A stretch of 13,044 bases of DNA, taken from the IMG/VR virus record IMGVR_UViG_2531839486_000015; one strand, written 5' to 3'. The DNA comes from a virus (Duplodnaviria > Heunggongvirae > Uroviricota > Caudoviricetes). Under the pieces are notes generated by a model. It did not search any database, had not been told where the DNA came from, and was given only the letters and a program-made list of their open reading frames with translations. Numbering within the stretch: the first letter of the stretch is position 1; each line of letters starts with the position of its first letter. A program made the position numbers and the translations under genes. Of the stretch, positions 1-10,424 are shown in pieces.

Positions 1-225
1 CGTAACAAGATGCCGCATACTGCGCCCCAACCTGTCCAGCTTCCAGACAACCAGCGTGTCTCCTGCCGATAGTGTCCTGAGCAGTTTTTTCAGCCCCGGT
101 CTGTCGGACTTAGTGCCGCTGATTTTATCCTCAAAAATCCGCTCACATCCCGCGCAGTTCAGCGCACTACGTTGCAAATCGGTGTTCTGGTCATTTGTTG
201 ACACGCGTACATAGCCAATAAGCAT
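1..225 (-). CDS. Serine DNA invertase, N-terminal 75 codons only (inverted duplicate of the 5' end of the 2334-2900 gene); 3' part lies beyond the window start, so complete gene vs fragment is undetermined
   Basis: Reverse complement of 1-225 is identical to 2334-2558 and encodes MLIGYVRVSTNDQNTDLQ... with the start codon at complement 223-225. Confidence 0.6.
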   Translation of the reverse strand, partial: MLIGYVRVSTNDQNTDLQRSALNCAGCERIFEDKISGTKSDRPGLKKLLRTLSAGDTLVVWKLDRLGRSMRHLVT

Positions 226-252
226 GATCATCTCCTTGAATAAAAATCGGGG

Positions 253-747
253 ATGATGCCAGTTAGTCGTAATCGCTGCATTTTCATAAACGTTGGTTTG
301 GGAGAAGCGGCAAAACGAAATGTGGGCAACGGGGAAAACCAAATCCCTGATATGTCTTTCTGGACGGTTACTGGTGGCAATGGAAATTTTGTGATTCGTC
401 AACCTGACGGGCTAATCATTCAGATGGTTACTGTAAGTATAAGCGGTCCAGTGGCGATGAATGGAATGACTGATAATGCTTATGCCATTACAGGTTCTAA
501 TAAGTCTTATATTGCCACAGCCACATTGCCCTTTGTATTTCCTAATAAGGTGCTGGGCGTTATCCCTCTGGTATCAACAACAGTTTATGGTGGTGTATCC
601 AGTAATATTACAGGTTCATACGCGACGGCGGTTTGTTCTTTTGCCGCTGTCAGGGGGAATAATACGATTGTGTTCAAAGTCGACAAACCACTGAATGCAG
701 CCTTTCCTTTAGATACCAGCGTCTCAGCGTTAATCATTGGACGGTAA
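253..747 (+). CDS. Tail-fibre C-terminal (receptor-binding) variable cassette A; ORF as drawn starts at an ATG in the flank, and unique sequence begins after the crossover site at codon ~19
   Basis: 164-aa ORF immediately followed by, and stop-overlapping, a tail-fibre assembly gene. The first 18 residues (MMPVSRNRCIFINVGLGE) are shared with the opposing cassette because they are encoded in the inverted repeat. Weak Shine-Dalgarno; in-frame TAA at 241-243 upstream. Confidence 0.5.
   Translation: MMPVSRNRCIFINVGLGEAAKRNVGNGENQIPDMSFWTVTGGNGNFVIRQPDGLIIQMVTVSISGPVAMNGMTDNAYAITGSNKSYIATATLPFVFPNKVLGVIPLVSTTVYGGVSSNITGSYATAVCSFAAVRGNNTIVFKVDKPLNAAFPLDTSVSALIIGR
281..306. other. 26-bp Hin/Gin-type inversion crossover site (left): ttttcataaacg-tt-ggtttgggagaa
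   Basis: Two 12-bp imperfect inverted half-sites around a 2-bp core. On the reverse strand it reads TTCTCCCAAACC AA CGTTTATGAAAA, which resembles hix/gix sites as I recall them (TTCTTGAAAACCAAGGTTTTTGATAA-like). It lies exactly where the sequence between the two arms becomes unique. Confidence 0.65.
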
Positions 748-749
748 GA

Positions 750-1193
750 ATGAACTCAGTATTCTTTTCACCCGGAAGTAAAAGTTTTTATCTGCAAGAA
801 TTGTTTCCAGAATATGAGGATGCGGGAACGCTTCCTGATGATGTTATTGAAATTACCAGAGAAACATATGAGCAATTTCTTGGGCTGCATCCTGAAGGGA
901 AAGAGATTGGCGCTGACAGTTCAGGACGGCCAGTATGGATTAATTCCCCACCACCTTCAAAAGAGGATGAGGTATTGACGGCTGAAATGAAAAAAATATC
1001 TTTGGTTTCAGAAGCCAATACCTACATCAATACCCATCAGTGGCCTGGCAAAGCTGCTATTGGTCGTCTGAAAGGTGACGAGCTGGAACAATATAATTTA
1101 TGGCTGGATTATCTGGACGCACTGGAACTGGTTGATCCCTCCAGTGCTCCAGATATTGAATGGCCTACGCCTCCGGCAGTTCAGGCCAGATGA
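750..1193 (+). CDS. Tail-fibre assembly chaperone (Tfa family), cassette A
   Basis: 147 aa; position directly after the tail-fibre cassette; C-terminal ...DIEWPTPP... motif resembles the conserved Tfa C-terminus (compare cassette B ...VIWPELPEA). Confidence 0.7.
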   Translation: MNSVFFSPGSKSFYLQELFPEYEDAGTLPDDVIEITRETYEQFLGLHPEGKEIGADSSGRPVWINSPPPSKEDEVLTAEMKKISLVSEANTYINTHQWPGKAAIGRLKGDELEQYNLWLDYLDALELVDPSSAPDIEWPTPPAVQAR

Positions 1194-1767
1194 CATTCGG
1201 CACGGTGCTGGTATCTGTTGCCATCACCGCGTCAATATAATCCAGCACAGCGTTAAGCCGGGTTGTTTCTGCCTGCGTCAGTTTCCGTCCGGCCTGTAAT
1301 TTCAGCTGAATCAGACTGATGGAAGCCATTGCAGCATCAATCAGTGACTGGCGCTGTGCTTCTGCCGCGTCTACTGCGGCGTTATGCTGTGCTTCAGTAT
1401 CGGTCACCCATTTCTCACCATCCCATTTATCGTATGGAGATAAAGGGGCGATAGTGGTTGTATTTTCAGGGTAATCACCCGGAGCTTTGATTTCTTTTGA
1501 TTCTCCTGTTTCAGTGCTATAGACAATTTCACCACGGTGGTCTGGCACATATATCCATGAGTTAAAATCTTCAGAACGGCAAATTGCATAACCAGTTTTG
1601 TATGGGCCAGGAGCATCTAAACAGGAACATGCCGGAATGCCGACACCAATGGCAAGATATTCGGTTGATGTGGAAATATATTCCCGTGATTCACCATCAT
1701 AGTTATAGACGGAAATATTCCCCGCCTTCGTGGCAATAAGCTCGCTATTTAATACGGCGTTATCCAT
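1165..1767 (-). CDS. Tail-fibre assembly chaperone (Tfa family), cassette B
   Basis: 200 aa; N-terminus MDNAVLNSELIA... and C-terminus ...RLNAVLDYIDAV...VIWPELPEA are typical of lambdoid/Mu-type Tfa proteins. Start codon overlaps the stop of the upstream minus-strand tail-fibre cassette (TAATG at 1765-1769). Confidence 0.8.
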   Translation of the reverse strand: MDNAVLNSELIATKAGNISVYNYDGESREYISTSTEYLAIGVGIPACSCLDAPGPYKTGYAICRSEDFNSWIYVPDHRGEIVYSTETGESKEIKAPGDYPENTTTIAPLSPYDKWDGEKWVTDTEAQHNAAVDAAEAQRQSLIDAAMASISLIQLKLQAGRKLTQAETTRLNAVLDYIDAVMATDTSTVPNVIWPELPEA

Positions 1768-2306
1768 TATGCAGCCCTCACGATATAGTTAAATGCAATA
1801 TTACGTGGACGCGTTTCTGAGGCTGCGGCACCTAAACCAGCCACTGATTGTTTATATGTTTTAAAGGTTCCATAATCCGGTGCTGGTAATCCGGCATCGT
1901 TTGTGTTTCCTCTTTTGATAATGTCAGTGCCACTATTTACCCAGCTTTCATCAAAATAAAAATTAATCGTTGCATCAGTCACAATCGTGGATCTTGACGG
2001 TAATCCATGAGCATGATCCTCCGTTGCATACCCCTGAACAGTGAGAAGACTTCGCCCATTATCTACACCACGCCCATCATCCCAGCCACGAATAAACTCA
2101 CCGCGTAAATCAGGCAATTTATTTGTCGGGTAAGCCTTCGCCAGCTTAGGATATTCAACGGCAGAAAAAGCCGCACCGTTACATTTCAGCCAGCCAGTAG
2201 GCGGTGTTGCAGAAGGCCACGGAACAGGCACACCAACGGGTAATGCCGAACCTTCTCCCAAACCAACGTTTAAGAAAATGCAGCGATTACGACTAACTGG
2301 CATCAT
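1767..2306 (-). CDS. Tail-fibre C-terminal variable cassette B with phage tail-collar-like domain
   Basis: 179 aa; after the shared 18-aa leader it contains ...WPSATPPTGWLKCNGAAFSAVEYPKLA...LPDLRGEFIRGWDDGRG..., the hallmark motif of the phage tail-fibre collar domain. Confidence 0.7.
   Translation of the reverse strand: MMPVSRNRCIFLNVGLGEGSALPVGVPVPWPSATPPTGWLKCNGAAFSAVEYPKLAKAYPTNKLPDLRGEFIRGWDDGRGVDNGRSLLTVQGYATEDHAHGLPSRSTIVTDATINFYFDESWVNSGTDIIKRGNTNDAGLPAPDYGTFKTYKQSVAGLGAAASETRPRNIAFNYIVRAA
2253..2278. other. 26-bp Hin/Gin-type inversion crossover site (right): ttctcccaaacc-aa-cgtttaagaaaa, inverted relative to 281-306
   Basis: Inverted copy of the 281-306 site, differing at one base in the outer half-site (2273 vs 286). 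It sits 50-56 bp upstream of the invertase start. Confidence 0.65.
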
Positions 2307-2558
2307 CCCCGATTTTTATTCAAGGAGATGATCATGCTTATTGGCTATGTACGCGTGTCAACAAATGACCAGAACACCGATTTGCAACGTAGTGCGCTGA
2401 ACTGCGCGGGATGTGAGCGGATTTTTGAGGATAAAATCAGCGGCACTAAGTCCGACAGACCGGGGCTGAAAAAACTGCTCAGGACACTATCGGCAGGAGA
2501 CACGCTGGTTGTCTGGAAGCTGGACAGGTTGGGGCGCAGTATGCGGCATCTTGTTACG
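2253..2558. repeat. Right arm of the long inverted repeat; covers the crossover site, the invertase leader and the first 75 codons of the invertase
   Basis: Same comparison as the left arm. The right arm extends at least to 2558 and may be longer, since the left arm is cut by the window edge. Confidence 0.9.
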
Positions 2559-2900
2559 CTGATAGAAGAGTTACGCCAGCGTGGTGTGAATTTCAGAAGC
2601 CTGACTGACAGTATTGATACCAGTACCCCAATGGGCCGTTTCTTTTTTCATGTCATGGGTGCCCTGGCTGAAATGGAACGCGAACTGATAGTTGAACGTA
2701 CCAGGGCAGGGCTGGCTGCAGCTCGTGCCAAAGGCAGAGTAGGTGGACGCCGTCCTAAGTTGACCACCGAACAGTGGGCACAGATTGGGCGTTTACTCGA
2801 GGCCGGAGAATCAAGACAGCGTATTGCACTGATTTTTGATGTAGGCGTTTCTACCATTTATAGAAAATTTCCGGCAAATAAGAGCAATGAATCCCCCTGA
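2334..2900 (+). CDS. Site-specific serine DNA invertase, Gin/Pin/Hin/Cin family
   Basis: MLIGYVRVSTNDQNTDLQR... N-terminus with catalytic Ser9 context; ...VVWKLDRLGRS...; C-terminal helix-turn-helix ...GVSTIYRKF. AAGGAG at 2322-2327 sits 6 nt before the ATG at 2334; the longer ORF from 2328 has no spacing to that Shine-Dalgarno. Confidence 0.92.
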   Translation: MLIGYVRVSTNDQNTDLQRSALNCAGCERIFEDKISGTKSDRPGLKKLLRTLSAGDTLVVWKLDRLGRSMRHLVTLIEELRQRGVNFRSLTDSIDTSTPMGRFFFHVMGALAEMERELIVERTRAGLAAARAKGRVGGRRPKLTTEQWAQIGRLLEAGESRQRIALIFDVGVSTIYRKFPANKSNESP

Positions 2901-2948
2901 ATCAGCATTATTTTGATTATCCCTGCAAGTAGACAAATACCGTCATTT

Positions 2949-2966
2949 TGTGTGAATAACGACACA
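2949..2966 (+). promoter_or_regulatory. Candidate Ogr/Delta activator binding site (TGT-N12-ACA) of a P2-type late promoter upstream of FI
   Basis: TGTGTGAATAACGACACA fits TGT-N12-ACA exactly, 77-94 bp upstream of the FI start codon, in the 142-bp gap between the invertase and FI. This is consistent with the site being centred near -55 of a late promoter. Confidence 0.45.
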
Positions 2967-3042
2967 ACTGCGCTTAGCTGTTTGTCAGGCACAATCACTT
3001 CAACATAGGGCGAAGCCTAATCCAATCAGGAGGTTCGCCACT

Positions 3043-4215
3043 ATGGCTCAGGATTACCACCACGGGGTGCGCGTTGTTGAAGTCAACGAAGGCACCCGAT
3101 CTATTACCACGGTGAGCACCGCCATCGTGGGTATGGTCTGCACGGGCGATGATGCCGATGCAAAAATGTTTCCTCTTAATAAACCCGTGCTGATCACTGA
3201 TGTGCTGACTGCCAGCGGTAAAGCGGGTGAGTCAGGTACTCTGGCCCGTTCGCTGGATGCCATCGCTGACCAGGCAAAACCCGTGACCATTGTTGTGCGT
3301 GTGCCGCAGGGTGAAACGGAAGACGAAACCACGACCAATATCATCGGCGCAGTGACTGCTGAAGGTAAAAAAACAGGTATGAAAGCCCTGTTATCTGCCC
3401 AGTCACAGCTCGGCGTTAAACCGCGCATTCTCGGCGTGCCAGGCCACGACACCAAGGCGGTAGCTACTGAGTTGCTAAGCGTGGCGCAAAGCCTGCGTGG
3501 ATTTGCTTACCTGTCAGCGTATGGCTGCAAGACAGTGCAGGAGGCGATCACTTACCGCGAAAACTTCAGCCAGCGTGAAGGGATGCTGATCTGGCCTGAC
3601 TTTACTGGCTGGGACACGGTGCTGAATGCCGAAGCAACGGCATATGCCACCGCCCGTGCGCTTGGTCTGCGCGCCAAAATTGACGAGCAGACCGGATGGC
3701 ACAAAAGCCTGTCCAACGTGGGCGTGAACGGTGTCACCGGAATTTCTGCAGATGTGTTCTGGGATCTGCAGGACCCGGCAACCGATGCAGGTCTGCTGAA
3801 CCAGAACGACGTCACCACGCTTGTGCGTAAAGACGGTTTCCGCTTCTGGGGTTCCCGCTGCCTGAGTGATGACCCGCTCTTTGCCTTCGAAAACTACACC
3901 CGCACGGCGCAGGTGCTGATGGACACGATTGCAGAAGCACACATGTGGGCGGTGGATAAACCTCTTAACCCGTCGCTGGCCCGCGACATTATCGAAGGTA
4001 TCCGCGCCAAAATGCGCAGCCTGGTCAGTCAGGGCTATCTCATTGGTGGTGATTGCTGGCTGGATGAGTCGGTGAACGACAAAGACACGCTGAAAGCCGG
4101 AAAACTCACCATCGACTATGACTACACGCCAGTGCCGCCACTTGAAAATCTGATGCTGCGCCAGCGCATCACCGATCAGTACCTGGTGAATTTTGCCAGC
4201 CAGGTCAGCGCGTAA
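3043..4215 (+). CDS. FI: Contractile tail sheath protein (P2 gpFI-like)
   Basis: 390 aa; N-terminus [19 protein letters not shown]...[10 protein letters not shown]... is characteristic of P2 FI sheath; AGGAGG Shine-Dalgarno 9 nt upstream; first gene of the late operon. Confidence 0.9.
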
Positions 4216-4224
4216 GGGGACAAC

Positions 4225-4740
4225 ATGGCTTTACCACGCAAATTAAAACATCTGAACCTGTTTAACGACGGGAACAACTGGCAGGGGATCGTAGAGTCGC
4301 TGACGCTGCCGAAATTCACCCGCAAATATGAGAAGTATCGCGGCGGCGGAATGCCGGGGGCAGTAGATGTGGATCTGGGGCTTGATGACAGTGCGCTGGA
4401 CACAGAATTTTCCATTGGTGGTACTGAACTGCTGCTGTTTAAGCAGATGGGCAAAGCCACTGTGGATGGCATCCAGCTGCGCTTTACCGGCTCTATCCAG
4501 CGTGACGATACCGGGGAAGTGCAGGCTGTGGAGCTTGTGGTGCGTGGACGTCACAAAGAAGTGGATTCCGGCGAGTGGAAGACGGGCGAAAGCAACACCA
4601 CCAAAGTGACCAGTACCAACAGCTACGCGAAGCTGACCATCAATGGTGAGGTGCTCTATGAAGTGGACCTTATCAACATGGTGGAAATTGTGGATGGTGT
4701 GGACCTGATGGAAGCACACCGCAACGCACTCGGCCTCTGA
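4225..4740 (+). CDS. FII: Tail tube protein (P2 gpFII-like)
   Basis: 171 aa, size and position immediately after the sheath gene; Shine-Dalgarno AAGGGGA upstream. Confidence 0.88.
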   Translation: MALPRKLKHLNLFNDGNNWQGIVESLTLPKFTRKYEKYRGGGMPGAVDVDLGLDDSALDTEFSIGGTELLLFKQMGKATVDGIQLRFTGSIQRDDTGEVQAVELVVRGRHKEVDSGEWKTGESNTTKVTSTNSYAKLTINGEVLYEVDLINMVEIVDGVDLMEAHRNALGL

Positions 4741-4794
4741 TCTATCTGAACGGCGCGGGATACCGCGCCAGAACCCAATTTAAAGGACAGCAAA

Positions 4795-5097
4795 ATGAGC
4801 GATAAGCAGACTGAAAAGACCATTCAACTGGATACCCCCATCAAGCGCGGTAAAACGGAAATCACCGAAATTGTGCTGCGTAAACCGCAGTCCGGTGCGC
4901 TGCGCGGTACACGCCTGCAGGCCATTATGGATATGGATGTAAACGCGATGATGACCGTGATCCCCCGCATCTCCAGTCCGGCACTGACTGCACAGGAAAT
5001 TGCAGAGATGGACCCGGCAGATCTCACTGCCATGTCGGTTGAGGTTGTCACTTTTTTGTTGAAGAAGTCGGTGCTTGCCGGTTTACCGACAGCCTGA
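4795..5097 (+). CDS. E: Tail assembly chaperone gpE (zero-frame product)
   Basis: 100-aa ORF between the tube and tape-measure genes; contains slippery heptamer T_TTT_TTG at 5052-5058 near its 3' end. Confidence 0.8.
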   Translation: MSDKQTEKTIQLDTPIKRGKTEITEIVLRKPQSGALRGTRLQAIMDMDVNAMMTVIPRISSPALTAQEIAEMDPADLTAMSVEVVTFLLKKSVLAGLPTA

Positions 5098-5231
5098 CGG
5101 TTGACGATCTGGTGGCAGATATCGCCACCATTTTTCACTGGCCGCCATCCGTTACTGACGTTATGCCGCTGACCGAAGTGCTGGAATGGCGGTATAAAGC
5201 GATTCAGAGAAGCGGGGCCAACGATGAGTGA
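4795..5231 (+). CDS. E: Tail assembly chaperone gpE+E' (-1 programmed frameshift product; join 4795..5058 with 5058..5231)
   Basis: After a -1 slip at 5052-5058 the -1 frame stays open for 57 codons (VEEVGACRFTDSLTVDDLVADIATIFHWPPSVTDVMPLTEVLEWRYKAIQRSGANDE) to TGA at 5229-5231, overlapping the T start at 5224. Total about 145 aa, close to P2 E+E' size as I recall it. Confidence 0.65.
5052..5058 (+). other. -1 ribosomal frameshift slippery heptamer TTTTTTG (X_XXY_YYZ in the gpE frame)
   Basis: Codons ACT TTT TTG in the E frame; heptamer directly visible in the sequence. Confidence 0.65.
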
Positions 5232-8200
5232 TAACAACCTGCGTCTGCAGGTCATTCTTAATGCGGTTGACAAGCTCACCCGCCCATTTCGATCTGCGCA
5301 GGCCAGTTCAAGAGAACTGGCTGCTGCTGTCAAAAAATCCCGCGATGCAATAAAGCAGCTTGATCAGGCCGGGAGCAGTCTGGACAGCTTCCGAAAGCTG
5401 CAGGCAGAAAATCAGAAATTAGGCGACAGGCTGAACTATGCCCGCCAGCGTGCAAATTTGCTCAGTCAGGAACTGGGTGCGATGGGGCCGCCTTCGCAAC
5501 GTCAGGTTGTTGCTCTGGGCCGTCAACGGCTGGCTGTTCAGCGCCTGGAAGAACGCCAGAAAAAGCTGCAGCAGCAGACGGCGCTTGTGCGTGCTGAACT
5601 GTACCGGGCGGGAATTTCTGCGAAAGACGATGCGGGAGCAACTGCCCGTTTAGCCCGTGAAACATCACGTTATAACCAGGAACTTTCGAAACAGGAGGCG
5701 CGGCTGAAGCGACTGGGGGAAGCTCAGCGCAGGATGAATGCAGCGCGTGTCAGTTATGCCCGTTCGCTGGAGGTGCGTGATCGTATTGCAGGTGCCGGAG
5801 CCACCACCACGGCTGCAGGGCTGGCAATGGGCGCACCAGTGATGGCGGCAGTAAAAAGCTATACCAGCATGGAAGATGCCATGAAAGGTGTGGCAAAGCA
5901 GGTCAATGGTCTGCGTGACGATAATGGCAACCGCACTGCACGTTTTTATGAAATGCAGGATGCCATCAAGGCTGCCAGCGAACAGTTGCCGATGGAAAAC
6001 GGTGCGGTGGATTTCGCTGCACTGGTTGAAGGTGGTGCGCGCATGAACGTCGCAAACCCTGACGACAGTTGGGAAGATCAGAAACGTGACCTGCTGGCCT
6101 TCGCCAGTACGGCAGCAAAGGCGGCAACAGCCTTTGAGCTGCCAGCGGATGAACTGTCAGAAAGTCTGGGGAAAATCGCCCAGCTCTACAAAATCCCCAC
6201 CCGCAATATTGAACAGCTCGGTGATGCGCTGAACTATCTGGATGATAACGCCATGTCGAAAGGGGCAGACATCATTGATGTGATGCAACGTCTGGGCGGT
6301 GTGGCTGACCGTCTGGATTATCGTAAAGCGGCGGCGCTGGGTTCCACCTTCCTGACACTGGGCGCTGCGCCAGAGGTTGCAGCCAGTGCAGCAAACGCGA
6401 TGGTGCGTGAATTGTCCATTGCCACCATGCAAAGCAAAAGTTTCTTTGAAGGGATGAATCTGCTGAAACTCAATCCTGAAGTGATTGAAAAGCAGATGAC
6501 GAAGGATGCGATGGGAACCATCCAGCGCGTGCTGGAGAAGGTAAACGCGCTGCCGCAGGACAAGCGCCTGTCTGCCATGACTATGTTGTTTGGTAAAGAG
6601 TTTGGCGATGACGCGGCGAAACTGGCAAACAACCTGCCGGAACTGCAGCGTCAGTTAAAACTGACAGCGGGCAATGATGCGCTCGGCTCCATGCAGAAAG
6701 AATCCGACATTAACAAGGATTCACTTTCTGCGCAGTGGTTGCTGGTCAAAACCGGAGCGCAGAACACCTTCAGCAGCCTGGGCGAAACGCTGCGCCAGCC
6801 GCTGATGGATATTCTGTACACGGTGAAAAGCGTCACGGGGGCGTTGCGTCGCTGGGTGGAAGCTAACCCGGAACTGACAGGCACACTGATGAAAGCATCG
6901 GCTGTTGTGGCTGCGGTTACCGTCGGCCTCGGCACCTTAGCGGTGGCGCTGGCTGCAGTGCTGGGGCCGCTGGCAGTGATCCGTCTGGGATTCTCTGTGT
7001 TGGGTATCAAAACGTTATCTTCCGTTACGGCAGCAGTAACTCGAACCAGCAGCGCGTTGTCCTGGCTGGCTGGCGCGCCACTGGCACTGCTGCGACGCGG
7101 GCTTGCTTCATCGGGCAACGCCGCAGGGTTACTTACTGCGCCGTTGTCGTCTTTGCGCCGCACGGCATCACTGACGGGAAATGTCCTGAAAACTGTAGCA
7201 GGTGCGCCGGTTGCACTTTTGCGGTCTGGATTATCCGGTTTACGTGCTGTTGCTGTGATGTTTATGAATCCTCTGGCGGTACTGCGCGGTGGACTGGCCG
7301 CCGCAGGCACGGTGCTGCGAGTACTGGCATCTGGTCCACTGGCGATGCTGCGCGTTGCCCTGTATGCCATATCTGGTCTGTTAGGTGCTCTGCTCAGTCC
7401 GATAGGTCTTGTGGTTACTGCACTGGCGGGCGTGGCGCTGGTTGTCTGGAAATACTGGCAACCCATCACCGCATTTCTCGGTGGCGTGGTGGAAGGATTC
7501 AAAGCGGCGGCAGGTCCCATCAGTGCAGCGTTCGAACCGCTTAAGCCCGTGTTCCAGTGGATTGGCGACAAAGTGCAGGCGCTGTGGGGCTGGTTTACTG
7601 ATCTGCTGACGCCCGTTAAGTCGACCTCTGCCGAACTGCAGAGCGCAGCGGCAATGGGGCGACGATTCGGGGAGGCACTGGCGGAAGGGCTGAATATGGT
7701 CATGCATCCGCTGGACTCCCTGAAATCCGGCGTTTCCTGGTTGCTGGATAAACTCGGCATTGTCAGTAAAGAGGCTGCAAAGGCGAAACTGCCGGAAAGC
7801 GTGACGCGTCAGCAACCTGCGACGGTGAATGCAGACGGTAAAGTGATGATGCCATCGGGTGGTTTTCCGTCATGGGGATATGGCTTTGCGGGGATGTATG
7901 ACAGCGGCGGCTATATCCCGCGCGGGCAGTTCGGCATTGTCGGTGAAAACGGGCCGGAAATTGTCAACGGTCCGGCAAACGTGACCAGCCGGAGAAATAC
8001 CGCTGCACTGGCTGCGGTTGTCGCCGGAATGATGGGAGTTGCTGCCGCGCCAGCAGAGCTTCCACCGTTGCATCCTTTGGCGCTTCCCGCGAAAGGCGGT
8101 GAAGCGATGGTGAGTCGCGTAGCTGCTGTGCCGCCCGTTCACCGGATTGAGGCACCGACGCAGATCATCATCCAGACGCAGCCAGGACAAAGTGCGCAGG

Positions 8201-8301
8201 ATATTGCGCGGGAGGTGGCCCGCCAGCTTGATGAACGTGAACGCAGGCTGAAGGCAAAAGCCAGGAGTAACTACAGCGATCAGGGGGGATACGACGCATG
8301 A
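5224..8301 (+). CDS. T: Tail tape measure protein (P2 gpT-like)
   Basis: 1025 aa; coiled-coil-rich N-terminal third, a central hydrophobic region with tandem ~22-aa repeats, and its position after E/E'. Confidence 0.9.
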   Translation: MSDNNLRLQVILNAVDKLTRPFRSAQASSRELAAAVKKSRDAIKQLDQAGSSLDSFRKLQAENQKLGDRLNYARQRANLLSQELGAMGPPSQRQVVALGRQRLAVQRLEERQKKLQQQTALVRAELYRAGISAKDDAGATARLARETSRYNQELSKQEARLKRLGEAQRRMNAARVSYARSLEVRDRIAGAGATTTAAGLAMGAPVMAAVKSYTSMEDAMKGVAKQVNGLRDDNGNRTARFYEMQDAIKAASEQLPMENGAVDFAALVEGGARMNVANPDDSWEDQKRDLLAFASTAAKAATAFELPADELSESLGKIAQLYKIPTRNIEQLGDALNYLDDNAMSKGADIIDVMQRLGGVADRLDYRKAAALGSTFLTLGAAPEVAASAANAMVRELSIATMQSKSFFEGMNLLKLNPEVIEKQMTKDAMGTIQRVLEKVNALPQDKRLSAMTMLFGKEFGDDAAKLANNLPELQRQLKLTAGNDALGSMQKESDINKDSLSAQWLLVKTGAQNTFSSLGETLRQPLMDILYTVKSVTGALRRWVEANPELTGTLMKASAVVAAVTVGLGTLAVALAAVLGPLAVIRLGFSVLGIKTLSSVTAAVTRTSSALSWLAGAPLALLRRGLASSGNAAGLLTAPLSSLRRTASLTGNVLKTVAGAPVALLRSGLSGLRAVAVMFMNPLAVLRGGLAAAGTVLRVLASGPLAMLRVALYAISGLLGALLSPIGLVVTALAGVALVVWKYWQPITAFLGGVVEGFKAAAGPISAAFEPLKPVFQWIGDKVQALWGWFTDLLTPVKSTSAELQSAAAMGRRFGEALAEGLNMVMHPLDSLKSGVSWLLDKLGIVSKEAAKAKLPESVTRQQPATVNADGKVMMPSGGFPSWGYGFAGMYDSGGYIPRGQFGIVGENGPEIVNGPANVTSRRNTAALAAVVAGMMGVAAAPAELPPLHPLALPAKGGEAMVSRVAAVPPVHRIEAPTQIIIQTQPGQSAQDIAREVARQLDERERRLKAKARSNYSDQGGYDA

Positions 8302-8783
8302 TGATGGTGCTGGGATTGTACGTGTTTATGCTGCGCACCGTTCCGTATCAGGAACTGCAGTATCAACGCAGCTGGCGACATGCGGCAAACAGTCGGGTAA
8401 ACCGACGTCCGTCCACGCAGTTTCTGGGACCGGAAAACGACATGCTGACGCTTTCCGGTGTTCTTATGCCGGAAATAACAGGCGGCAGGCTGTCGTTGCT
8501 GGCACTGGAGCAGATGGCAGAACAGGGGAAAGCATGGCCCCTGATTGAAGGCAGCGGCACGATTTACGGCATGTATGTGATTGAGGGACTGAATCAGACT
8601 AAAACGGAGTTTTTCCGCGACGGTATGCCGCGCCGGATTGAGTTCACCCTGTCGCTAAAACGCGTGGATGAATCCCTGCCCGATATGTTCGGTGATCTCA
8701 GTGCGCAACTGAATAATCTGCAGGGAACGGCAACATCTGCCTTAAGCGATATCAGTAAAACGGTGGGAGGGCTGCTGTCGTGA
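8298..8783 (+). CDS. U: Tail protein gpU-like
   Basis: 161 aa; ATGA start/stop overlap with T; position and size match P2 U. Confidence 0.8.
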   Translation: MMMVLGLYVFMLRTVPYQELQYQRSWRHAANSRVNRRPSTQFLGPENDMLTLSGVLMPEITGGRLSLLALEQMAEQGKAWPLIEGSGTIYGMYVIEGLNQTKTEFFRDGMPRRIEFTLSLKRVDESLPDMFGDLSAQLNNLQGTATSALSDISKTVGGLLS

Positions 8784-9880
8784 ATTTCAGCTCTGAACTG
8801 CTTAACAAAGGCAACAAAACTCCGGCATTCAGCATCAGTATTGAAGGCAGGGATATCACCACTGTGCTGGACAACCGCCTGATGGGGCTGACGCTGACGG
8901 ATAACCGGGGCTTTGAAGCGGACCAGCTTGATCTGGAGCTGGACGACGCCGATGGAAAAATCGTGCTGCCGCGCCGTGGTGCGGTCATTACGCTGGCGCT
9001 GGGCTGGAAGGGGCAGCCGCTTTTCCCGAAAGGGGCATTCACGGTGGACGAGATTGAACACACTGGCGCACCGGACCGCCTGACTATCCGGGCGCGAAGT
9101 GCTGATTTTCGTGAAACGCTGAATACCCGTCGTGAAAAGTCGTGGCACAAGACCACTGTCGGGGAAGTGGTGAAGGAAATAGCCGCGCGTCATAAGCTGA
9201 AGATGGCACTGGGTAAAGACCTGTCGGATAAGCCCGTGGAGCATATAGACCAGACTAATGAGAGTGACGGCAGTTTTCTGATGCGGCTGGCGCGCCAGTA
9301 CGGTGCCATCGCGTCGGTGAAAAATGGCAATCTGTTATTCATCCGGCAGGGACAGGGCAAAAGCGCCAGCGGTAAACCACTGCCGGTGATCTCAATCACA
9401 CGTAAGGACGGCGACAGTCACCGCTTTACCCTGGCAGATCGCGGAGCCTACACGGGCGTAATTGCCAGTTGGTTGCATACCCGCGAACCCGCGAAGAAAG
9501 AAAGCACCACGGTGAAGCGTAAGCGCAGGACTAAGAAGCAGAAGAAAGAGCCGGAAGCGAAGCAGGGCGATTACCTGGGGGGTACGGATGAAAACGTGCT
9601 GGTACTTAATCGCACTTATGCCAACCGGAGCAACGCCGAACGGGCAGCGAAAATGCAGTGGGAACGCCTGCAACGCGGCGTTGCATCATTCTCGCTACAA
9701 CTGGCGGAAGGGCGGGCAGATCTCTACACAGAAATGCCTGTGAAGGTCAGTGGCTTTAAACAGCCGATAGATGATGCGGAATGGACCATTACGACTCTGA
9801 CGCATACCGTCAGCCCCGATAACGGTTTTACAACCAGTCTGGAGCTTGAAGTGAGGATTGATGATTTCGAAATGGAATGA
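8780..9880 (+). CDS. D: Tail protein gpD-like (late gene D)
   Basis: 366 aa; GTG start overlapping the U stop, with GGGAGG Shine-Dalgarno 9 nt upstream; position before ogr as in P2. Confidence 0.8.
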   Translation: MNFSSELLNKGNKTPAFSISIEGRDITTVLDNRLMGLTLTDNRGFEADQLDLELDDADGKIVLPRRGAVITLALGWKGQPLFPKGAFTVDEIEHTGAPDRLTIRARSADFRETLNTRREKSWHKTTVGEVVKEIAARHKLKMALGKDLSDKPVEHIDQTNESDGSFLMRLARQYGAIASVKNGNLLFIRQGQGKSASGKPLPVISITRKDGDSHRFTLADRGAYTGVIASWLHTREPAKKESTTVKRKRRTKKQKKEPEAKQGDYLGGTDENVLVLNRTYANRSNAERAAKMQWERLQRGVASFSLQLAEGRADLYTEMPVKVSGFKQPIDDAEWTITTLTHTVSPDNGFTTSLELEVRIDDFEME

Positions 9881-9970
9881 TTCTTCGCAATGGAGAACTT
9901 TTAAGTTTGCAAAATGGAATAATGCGGTATCATTATTGTGAATTTAGCAAAAATGGGGAGAACTCGAAAA

Positions 9971-10189
9971 ATGATGATTTGCCCACTGTGTGGAAGTGCC
10001 GCCCATACTCGTAGCAGTTTTCAGGTATCTTCATTGACCAAAGAGCGTTACAACCAGTGCCAGAACATTAACTGCAGCCATACTTTTGTTACCCATGAAA
10101 CTTTTGTTCGTTCGATTGCAACGCCAAAAGAGTCAAATCCGGTTCAGCCGCATCCAATGAAATCAGGACAGGTGGCGCTCTCTCTTTGA
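9971..10189 (+). CDS. ogr: Ogr/Delta-family zinc-finger late transcription activator
   Basis: 72 aa from the ATG at 9971: MMICPLCGSAAHTRS...KERYNQCQNINCSHTF... with C-X2-C...C-X4-C zinc finger. This length matches P2 Ogr; the longer ORF from 9938 adds 11 residues not expected in the family. Confidence 0.85.
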   Translation: MMICPLCGSAAHTRSSFQVSSLTKERYNQCQNINCSHTFVTHETFVRSIATPKESNPVQPHPMKSGQVALSL

Positions 10190-10424
10190 CGCTGCCGCCA
10201 ATTTGTCGCCATCGTTAAAAAACAGCGCTTCTAACATCATGATTTTAAAAGGCATAAATTTCAGGCAACAAAAAACCCATCAACCTTGAACCGAAATGGC
10301 GGGGGTGATGGGCTCCACAAAATGGGGACATCAAAGAAAAGCAGTGGCACTAATTAAGACTGATGCCCTGCGGAAAAGTTCTGCGGTTGTGCAAAAAAAT
10401 TTCATTTTCAGGGCAACTTCAGTT

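What the first reader, a model, noticed from the sequence alone, without database searches (positions are those of the whole stretch)
281..2278. Invertible tail-fibre cassette (shufflon) driven by a Gin/Pin-type invertase in a P2-type tail module
Two 26-bp hix/gix-like sites in inverted orientation (281-306, 2253-2278) bracket about 1.95 kb carrying two convergent tail-fibre C-terminus plus Tfa chaperone cassettes, with a serine invertase gene directly outside the right site. Inversion would swap which receptor-binding cassette lies next to either flank, so this is a host-range switch. It is a known class of system, but it sits where P2 itself carries the non-invertible H-G genes.
Basis: partly seen in the sequence, partly recalled or inferred. 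Interest (0 to 1): 0.6.

Follow-up and report, generated by a model that had tools for sequence, protein, structure and literature searches.

The report
Known prophage tail-fibre switch, misassembled end
This is an ordinary, already described Pin/Gin-type DNA-inversion switch that lets a P2-like E. coli prophage alternate between two tail-fibre tips. Its left border in this sequence is not real genome but a fold-back at the start of a draft contig, most likely assembled from a culture holding both orientations.

Summary
Bases 1-280 are an inverted copy of the invertase upstream region and its first 75 codons. The window is bases 2-13045 of draft contig APYD01000021.1, so the fold-back sits at a contig end.

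Near-identical prophages at the same chromosomal site, and complete E. coli genomes, carry the constant part of tail-fibre gene H left of the segment. They hold the segment in either orientation. The contig therefore joins the two orientation states.

The system is closest to the e14 P segment: invertase 86% PinE, cassette B 90-91% StfE/TfaE, sites 25-26/26. It has the Mu G layout and fills the P2 Z/fun hotspot. Inversion in P2-like prophages is published. It has two sites and a serine recombinase, so it is not a shufflon in the strict sense. It is already known and of low interest. One mismatch (286) is unexplained.

The parts
1..280 (-). Contig-terminal fold-back. It is an inverted copy of 2279-2558, holding the invertase upstream region and, at 225-1 on the minus strand, the first 75 codons of the invertase. 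It is not the natural left flank of the segment.
   Evidence: 100% reverse-complementary to 2279-2558. A truncated 75-aa Resolvase gene is called at the contig start. The window starts 1 nt from the contig start. Complete genomes and long contigs have gene H here instead.
281..306 (+). Recombination site, invertase-proximal type: TTTTCATAAACG TT GGTTTGGGAGAA. The crossover dinucleotide is at 293-294. It carries the single mismatch (286 A) relative to the right site.
   Evidence: Identical to the e14 pin-proximal site.
292..747 (+). Cassette A fibre tip: the alternative C-terminal 151 residues of tail-fibre protein H (Gp53-like_C). The ORF as drawn (253-747) takes its first 13 codons from the invertase upstream region.
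   Evidence: 98% identical to residues 350-500 of the 500-aa H protein of L002. The Pfam Gp53-like_C match is just below the gathering score here; Gp53-like_C is also on record for the full-length H protein of L006, which carries a different cassette A.
750..1193 (+). Tail-fibre assembly chaperone of cassette A (Tfa, 147 aa).
   Evidence: Caudo_TAP E=1e-27. 57% identical to e14 TfaP.
1165..1767 (-). Tail-fibre assembly chaperone of cassette B (TfaE-like, 200 aa). It converges on the cassette A chaperone gene and overlaps it by 29 nt.
   Evidence: Caudo_TAP E=2e-31. 89.5% identical to e14 TfaE.
1767..2267 (-). Cassette B fibre tip: the alternative C-terminal 166 residues of H (Collar domain, StfE-like). 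The ORF as drawn (1767-2306) takes its first 13 codons from the invertase upstream region.
   Evidence: 99% identical to residues 350-515 of the 515-aa H protein of L008. Collar E=5e-15. 91% identical to e14 StfE.
2253..2278 (-). Recombination site next to the invertase. Read on the minus strand it is TTTTCTTAAACG TT GGTTTGGGAGAA. The crossover dinucleotide is at 2265-2266.
2334..2900 (+). Serine DNA invertase (188 aa) of the Gin/Cin/Pin/Hin group.
   Evidence: Resolvase E=3e-53 plus HTH_7 E=1.5e-15. Gin structure 3UJ3 matches at E=4e-92 over 184 residues, with the catalytic Ser in YVRVSTNDQ. 86% PinE, 79% Cin, 74% Gin.
2352..2423 (+). Stretch homologous to the annotated recombinational enhancer inside P1 cin (nt 19-90 of the gene). 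This is the inferred Fis-binding enhancer.
   Evidence: The P1 enhancer annotation is. Alignment gives 76% identity to P1 and 88% to e14 over this stretch. Coding constraint cannot be separated from enhancer conservation.
3043..10189 (+). Context: the P2-type tail gene block FI (sheath), FII (tube), E, E', T (tape measure), U, D and ogr.
   Evidence: Pfam families on the called genes. Same order as P2.

Best explanation
This is a Pin/Gin-type (serine invertase) inversion switch of the tail-fibre gene H of a P2-like E. coli prophage, seen through a misassembled contig end.

In the real prophage the order is V-W-J-I-H(constant, about 350 codons) | site | fibre tip A, TfaA > < TfaB, fibre tip B | site | invertase > FI FII E E' T U D ogr. 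The invertase binds the two 26-bp sites, presumably with host Fis bound to an enhancer in the 5' part of its own gene. It cuts at the central TT/AA dinucleotide and rotates the 1,972-bp segment (294-2265). Whichever cassette faces H is read in frame through the motif LGLGE as the C-terminal receptor-binding end of H, and is co-transcribed with its own chaperone. The other cassette is silent next to the invertase.

In this window the H part is absent. Bases 1-280 are an inverted copy of the invertase flank at the very start of a draft contig. The contig therefore holds both 'invertase flank | cassette A' (the flipped state) and 'cassette B | invertase flank' (the unflipped state). Most likely the sequenced DNA was a mixture of both orientations.

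Shown here: the anatomy, the homologies, the frame fusion, both orientations in near-identical prophages, and the contig-end position. Inferred: Fis dependence, current activity in this strain, and the effect on host range.
For: - Fold-back: 1-307 against 2252-2558, 306/307. The window is contig bases 2-13045, and a truncated Resolvase gene is called at the contig start.
- None of 5,426 complete E. coli genomes has a single place covering both arms. The best places cover 281/293-3300 or 1-2269, each stopping at a site.
- Complete genomes L001, L002, L019 and L020 show I-H-tfa-tfa'-tip'-invertase-sheath, in both orientations.
- L008 is the same prophage at the same chromosomal site. Its flank is 100%, its tail genes 99.94% and its host DNA 99.93% identical, and it has the same segment (99.85%) inverted.
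- Both junction types occur in complete genomes: invertase|A in 158 and B|invertase in 567.
- The H proteins continue in frame into either cassette from residue 350.
- Invertase and site similarity to Gin, Cin and Pin. Only two sites exist in the window.
- Other draft contigs of this prophage break at or near the site (L010-L013, L015).
- Published inversion in e14 and in P2-like prophages, in Fels-2 and in the P2 Z/fun hotspot.
Against: - No reads were available, so mixed orientation in the sequenced culture is inferred from the contig structure only.
- The left site carries A at 286. Every locus with the same invertase flank, in either orientation, has T there. A pure chimera of one population should give T.
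- The enhancer is supported only by homology inside a coding region. A simple Fis-core scan was not decisive.
- Host-range change and Fis dependence were not tested.
Confidence: 0.85

Rival explanations
1. The left arm comes from a second, paralogous prophage or e14-like element in the same genome, with cassette A next to its invertase. The assembler collapsed the shared sequence. The contig would then join two loci rather than two orientation states of one locus.
For: E. coli genomes often hold several such loci (median 2 places, up to 12). The A at 286 is a natural variant of this site in e14 and in L001/L007. That would turn the single mismatch into a paralogous difference.
Against: The 285 nt outside the mismatch are 100% identical to the window's own invertase flank. 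Loci that carry the A variant have clearly different flanks (97.2% over 1,022 nt, with several differences within 30 nt of the site). No complete genome has the left junction at 100%; the best is 99.3%.
Confidence: 0.08
2. The structure is real. The chromosome carries an inverted duplication of at least 308 nt of the invertase 5' region on the left of the segment, so the segment is bracketed by two invertase starts and is detached from gene H.
For: The sequence as deposited shows it. The one mismatch could be divergence between two real copies.
Against: The duplication ends exactly at a contig terminus. No complete genome shows it. Near-identical prophages at the same site have H there. It would leave the prophage without a complete tail-fibre gene. 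Several other draft assemblies break at this same place.
Confidence: 0.04
3. The switch is a fossil in this strain, fixed in one orientation. The fold-back would arise from a chimeric read or an assembler error at the short inverted repeat, not from flipped molecules.
For: No reads were inspected. The odd base at 286 suggests low-quality support for the left arm.
Against: In a single orientation the perfect inverted repeat between the H-proximal and invertase-proximal sites is only about 15 nt. That is too short for normal k-mer or overlap joins. The invertase ORF is intact and keeps the catalytic Ser motif. The same prophage is found in both orientations in other isolates. Related loci flip in culture.
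Confidence: 0.05

Closest known systems
e14 invertible P segment with PinE (E. coli K-12: stfP/ycfK-tfaP | tfaE-stfE | pinE)
   Same: - Same layout and gene order, and the same 29-nt overlap of the convergent tfa genes.
- Invertase 86% identical to PinE. Cassette B is 91% StfE and 89.5% TfaE. TfaA is 57% TfaP.
- The site next to the invertase is 25-26/26 identical.
- Inversion of the e14 segment in culture is published.
   Different: - The host element is a P2-type myovirus prophage with an intact tail module, not the defective lambdoid e14.
- The cassette A fibre tip has no match to StfP.
Phage Mu G segment with Gin
   Same: - Sc | gix | Sv-U > < U'-S'v | gix | gin layout, with the invertase read away from the segment.
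- The crossover lies about 68 nt upstream of the invertase start in both.
- Invertase 74% identical. Site 17/26 identical.
   Different: - The segment is about 3 kb in Mu and 1.97 kb here.
- The fibre tips and chaperones show no BLASTP similarity at E<1e-3 to Mu S/U or S'/U'.
- The central dinucleotide is TC in Mu and TT here.
Phage P1 C segment with Cin
   Same: - Invertase 79% identical. cix sites 19/26 identical, with the same TT core.
- The annotated enhancer in the 5' part of cin aligns with 2352-2423 at 76%.
   Different: - In P1 cin reads towards the segment and cixL overlaps its 3' end.
- The P1 segment is 4.2 kb.
Invertible tail-fibre loci of P2-like prophages (EPEC E2348/69 prophages; Fels-2 Fin of Salmonella LT2; invertase cargo in the P2 Z/fun hotspot)
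   Same: - Same kind of element in the same kind of phage. Phase variation by inversion was shown by sequencing and PCR in EPEC P2-like prophages.
- A Fin invertase lies next to a 2.7-kb invertible fragment in Fels-2.
- An invertase with inverted neighbours is often seen in the Z/fun hotspot.
- Phage records with the same arrangement include pro483, 500465-1, the KC618326 'P2', Cartapus and Klebsiella KP12.
   Different: - Nothing of substance. One EPEC locus has three sites and four variants; this one has two sites and two variants.
- I did not compare sequences with the EPEC or Fels-2 loci directly.
R64-type shufflon
   Same: DNA inversion swaps the C-terminal ends of an adhesin-like protein.
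   Different: - A shufflon uses a tyrosine recombinase (Rci) and many sfx repeats bounding several segments (my own knowledge).
- This locus has a serine invertase and only two sites.

Membership tests
Gin/Hin/Cin/Pin serine DNA-invertase inversion systems | Small serine recombinase: an N-terminal catalytic domain with the nucleophilic Ser, plus a C-terminal helix-turn-helix | tested here: met
   Resolvase E=3e-53 plus HTH_7 E=1.5e-15. Aligns end to end with the Gin structures 3UJ3 and 4M6F, including YVRVSTNDQ. 74-86% identical to Gin, Cin and PinE.
Gin/Hin/Cin/Pin serine DNA-invertase inversion systems | Two 26-bp sites in inverted orientation, each made of two imperfectly symmetric 12-bp half-sites around a 2-bp core, with matching core dinucleotides | tested here: met
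   281-306 and 2253-2278, with core TT/AA and half-site symmetry 8/12, as in cix and gix. In the natural locus the left site is TTCTCGCATACC TT GGTTTGGGAGAA inside gene H.
Gin/Hin/Cin/Pin serine DNA-invertase inversion systems | Sites resemble characterised gix, cix and pix sites | tested here: met
   25-26/26 to e14, 19/26 to P1 cixL/cixR (annotated crossovers) and 17/26 to Mu gix (annotated G boundaries).
Gin/Hin/Cin/Pin serine DNA-invertase inversion systems | Fis-bound recombinational enhancer in cis, inside the 5' part of the invertase gene | tested here: inconclusive
   2352-2423 aligns with the annotated P1 enhancer (76%) and with gin and pinE (71% and 88%). This is coding sequence, and the Fis-core scan gave no clean conserved pair.
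Gin/Hin/Cin/Pin serine DNA-invertase inversion systems | The segment is found in both orientations | tested here: met
   The same prophage has the same segment inverted in L008 relative to the window's right junction. Complete genomes show both states. There are 158 and 567 genomes for the two junctions. Both junctions occur in the one source contig. Inversion within this isolate was not tested directly.
Invertible tail-fibre host-range switch (Mu G / P1 C / e14 P type) | The crossover site lies inside the tail-fibre ORF, so a constant N-terminal part is fused in frame to either of two C-termini | tested here: met
   This holds in related loci. The H proteins of L002 (500 aa) and L008 (515 aa) share residues 1-349 and continue from LGLGE into cassette A or B. 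It does not hold in the window itself, where the constant part is absent.
Invertible tail-fibre host-range switch (Mu G / P1 C / e14 P type) | Each alternative C-terminus is followed by its own Tfa/U-type chaperone gene, and the two cassettes converge | tested here: met
   Two Caudo_TAP genes at 750-1193(+) and 1165-1767(-), each downstream of a fibre tip.
Invertible tail-fibre host-range switch (Mu G / P1 C / e14 P type) | The two orientations give particles with different host range | not testable with these tools
   This needs adsorption or plaque assays with orientation-locked lysogens.
Shufflon (R64 type multiple-inversion system) | Tyrosine recombinase (Rci) acting on three or more repeats that bound several segments | tested here: not met
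   The recombinase is a serine resolvase/invertase. Only two sites exist in the window.
P2-like (Peduoviridae) tail module | Gene order FI-FII-E-E'-T-U-D-ogr downstream of H-G | tested here: met
   Pfam families in this order on the source contig. P2 annotation for comparison, with fun(Z) between G and FI.

The most novel reading that the evidence does not exclude
The fold-back is real DNA. A short inverted duplication of the invertase promoter, 5' coding region and enhancer would flank the segment on both sides and detach it from gene H. This would be a rearrangement product of the invertase itself, or a second enhancer copy that alters inversion control. A weaker variant is that the A/T difference at 286 records recombination or gene conversion between sites of different resident prophages.
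Probability: 0.04. Interest if true: 0.35.

Novelty: already known. Interest (0 to 1): 0.1.

Why it matters
Biologically it adds nothing new. Serine-invertase switches of tail-fibre tips have been textbook material since Mu G, P1 C and e14 P. They are documented in P2-like prophages, and the same prophage is annotated in many E. coli genomes.

The practical lesson concerns reading draft assemblies. An invertible segment that is flipping in the sequenced culture breaks contigs at the recombination site. It can leave a fold-back that mimics a long inverted repeat and a second recombinase gene fragment. Such a fold-back is indirect evidence that the switch is active in that isolate, and it can be checked cheaply against the reads.

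Tried and rejected
- Fis-site scan of the invertase 5' region. Candidate G-N13-C cores exist (for example window 2355-2369, conserved in gin and pinE), but no clean conserved pair was found. I left this as inconclusive.
- Promoter and terminator consensus scan of 1-3100. Counts were no better than shuffled sequence and nothing usable appeared near the invertase start.
- NCBIfam gave no equivalog for any cassette protein, and only far-below-cutoff hits for the invertase.
- Exact-sequence look-ups of the two silent-cassette ORFs were meant to find other assemblies holding both junctions. They returned only the source contig, because the I/L difference caused by base 286 and the start-codon choice make these proteins unique.
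- I tried to read Kutsukake 2006 and Mehta 2004 for Fels-2 and e14 details. Neither is held, so I relied on citing papers.
- I considered searching for the H-constant contig of the same assembly. I rejected this because the look-up tool only accepts proteins of this window or of a homology search, and a gene truncated at a contig end would not be found by exact sequence.
The relatives are e14 StfE, TfaE and TfaP.
- A third or further recombination site (a true multi-inversion system): none found.
Full report
**What is in the sequence**

Each is a 26-bp site with 12-bp half-sites around a central TT/AA. A degenerate pattern for such sites finds only these two places in the 13-kb window, against 0.01 expected by chance.

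Between the sites lie four genes in two convergent cassettes:
- Cassette A: a fibre tip at 253-747 (Gp53-like_C, just under the Pfam cut-off) and a Caudo_TAP chaperone at 750-1193.
- Cassette B, on the other strand: a Caudo_TAP chaperone at 1165-1767 and a Collar-domain fibre tip at 1767-2306.

Just outside the right site is a 188-aa serine recombinase at 2334-2900. It has Resolvase and HTH_7 domains. It aligns over its whole length with the solved Gin structures, E=4e-92, including the catalytic-serine motif YVRVSTNDQ.

The repeat finder reports arms 1-307 and 2252-2558, 307 nt long, reaching base 1 of the window. A direct comparison gives 306/307. The only mismatch is at 286, which is A where the mirror position gives T.

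Bases 1-280 are therefore an inverted copy of the invertase upstream region and its first 75 codons. The left flank of the segment in this window is not tail-fibre sequence.

**Where the window comes from**

An exact-sequence look-up of the tape-measure protein found 23 contigs. One of them, APYD01000021.1 of assembly GCA_000357025.2 (121,686 bp), contains the window at bases 2-13045. A truncated 75-aa Resolvase gene is called at the contig's first 226 bases. The fold-back therefore sits exactly at the end of a draft contig.

**What the natural locus looks like**

- None of 5,426 complete E. coli genomes has one place that covers both arms. The best places cover either 281/293-3300 or 1-2269. 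Each stops at a recombination site.
- The annotated regions of four complete genomes (L001, L002, L019, L020) show V-W-J-I-H, tfa, tfa', silent tip, recombinase, sheath, tube and so on. The segment is in one orientation in L002 and L020 and in the other in L001 and L019.
- L008 is a 341-kb contig of another isolate. It carries the same prophage at the same chromosomal site. Its invertase flank is 100% identical, its tail genes 99.94% and its host DNA 99.93%. It has the same segment at 99.85% identity but inverted, with gene H on the left.
- The site inside H is TTCTCGCATACC TT GGTTTGGGAGAA. The site next to the invertase is TTTTCTTAAACG TT GGTTTGGGAGAA.
- The 500-aa H of L002 and the 515-aa H of L008 run in frame from residue 350 (LGLGE) into cassette A and cassette B respectively.
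- The two ORFs in the window are silent-cassette reading frames. Their first 13 codons come by chance from the invertase upstream region.

**How the fold-back arose**

The junction 'invertase flank | site | cassette A' exists only in the flipped state. The junction 'cassette B | site | invertase flank' exists only in the unflipped state. Both are natural: they occur in 158 and 567 complete genomes respectively.

The source contig contains both junctions. Within one orientation the perfect inverted repeat between the two natural sites is only about 15 nt. That is too short for an assembler to bridge without reads. The simplest reading is that the sequenced DNA held both orientations and the assembler walked from the segment into reads of the other state.

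Other draft contigs of the same prophage break at or near the site (L010-L013, L015), which is what a flipping segment does to short-read assemblies. I had no reads, so this step is inference.

**One thing that does not fit**

A pure chimera should carry T at 286. All eight loci with the same flank have T there, in either orientation. A occurs in e14 and in L001/L007, but their flanks differ. No complete genome matches the left junction at 100%; the best is 99.3%.

The mismatch could be a consensus error at a thinly covered contig end, or contamination of the consensus by a paralogous site. Both are possible and I could not decide between them.

**Mechanism**

Shown:
- A Gin/Cin/Pin-type invertase.
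- Sites with the family's architecture and sequence: 25-26/26 to e14, 19/26 to the annotated P1 cix sites, and 17/26 to the annotated Mu G boundaries.
- Identical core dinucleotides in inverted orientation.
- In-frame fusion to either fibre tip.
- A chaperone gene behind each tip.
- Both orientations in near-identical prophages.

Inferred from what is known of this family:
- Cleavage at the central dinucleotide and 180-degree rotation.
- Dependence on Fis bound to an enhancer in the 5' part of the invertase gene. Window 2352-2423 aligns with the annotated P1 enhancer at 76%, but this is coding sequence and a simple Fis-core scan was not decisive.
- A change of host range.

**Comparison with known systems**

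- The closest relative is the e14 P segment: invertase 86% PinE, cassette B 91% StfE and 89.5% TfaE, and TfaA 57% TfaP. The cassette A tip has no counterpart in e14.
- The layout is that of Mu G. The invertase is read away from the segment and the crossover lies about 68 nt upstream of its start. The fibre tips and chaperones show no BLASTP similarity to Mu or P1 proteins.
- The silent cassette and the invertase occupy the place between G and FI where P2 has fun(Z).
- A recent survey notes that an invertase with inverted neighbouring genes is often seen in this P2 hotspot.
- Phase variation by inversion was demonstrated by sequencing and PCR in e14 and in two P2-like prophages of EPEC.
- Fels-2 carries the Fin invertase next to a 2.7-kb invertible fragment.
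- Phage records with the same arrangement include pro483, 500465-1 and Cartapus.
- 'Shufflon' in the strict sense does not apply, because there are two sites and the enzyme is a serine recombinase.

**Verdict**

The features are real, but the repeat is 307 nt long and the left flank is a contig-end fold-back.
- This is an already known kind of switch in an already known place, so interest is low.
- The only useful by-product is that the fold-back is indirect evidence that the switch was flipping in the sequenced culture. The reads can confirm this.

Noticed in passing
window 286 (mirror 2273): This is the single mismatch in the 307-nt fold-back, A on the left against T on the right. It lies in the outer half-site. 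All loci with the same invertase flank have T in either orientation, and A is the e14/L001/L007 variant. It changes codon 12 of the silent ORF (I against L).
   Followed up: partly
window 10267-10345 (-): The RybB sRNA gene (Rfam, 100 bits) lies 77 nt after the end of ogr and is followed by ybjL-type permease, ybjM and grxA. The right prophage-host junction therefore lies at or next to rybB. The attachment core was not located.
   Followed up: partly
L010-L015 (draft contigs carrying the identical tape-measure protein): Several independent draft or metagenome contigs of this prophage end at or within about 140 nt of the invertase-proximal site. L015 ends exactly at the site's inner edge, and L012 starts two bases past the crossover dinucleotide. 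This is the usual signature of a flipping or repeated segment.
   Followed up: partly
L006 5173-7055 and L010 1-1260, compared with window 281-2278: Prophages 99.9% identical in the tail genes carry a different cassette A (465-aa H, 145-aa Tfa). Segment identity is only 87-88% in patches. Cassettes are therefore exchanged by recombination as well as flipped. L007 has a 97% invertase flank inside an otherwise 99.9% identical prophage.
   Followed up: no
L020 693-2114 (NZ_AP045787.1): In this complete genome gene H is annotated as an incomplete pseudogene (693-1082). A gap follows, then a separate 'gp53-like domain-containing protein' at 1704-2114. The H constant part seems disrupted, although the invertase-side junction is 100% identical to the window.
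   Followed up: no
window 1103-1120 / 1229-1246 and 1165-1193: An 18-nt inverted repeat (89%) flanks the 29-nt overlap of the two convergent tfa genes. It appears to reflect the similar C-terminal stretch of the two Tfa proteins (WLDYLDA and VLDYIDA in the translations) encoded on opposite strands, not a terminator. e14 has the same 29-nt overlap.
   Followed up: partly
window 253-291 and 2268-2306; L001 4256-4747, L002 5478-6026: RefSeq and gene callers annotate the silent cassette as a free-standing 'hypothetical protein' or 'phage tail protein' starting at an ATG in the invertase upstream region. This is an annotation by-product of the switch.
   Followed up: partly
window 6651-7760 (-): A 369-aa ORF lies antisense inside the tape-measure gene. 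It is probably a chance ORF and was not examined.
   Followed up: no
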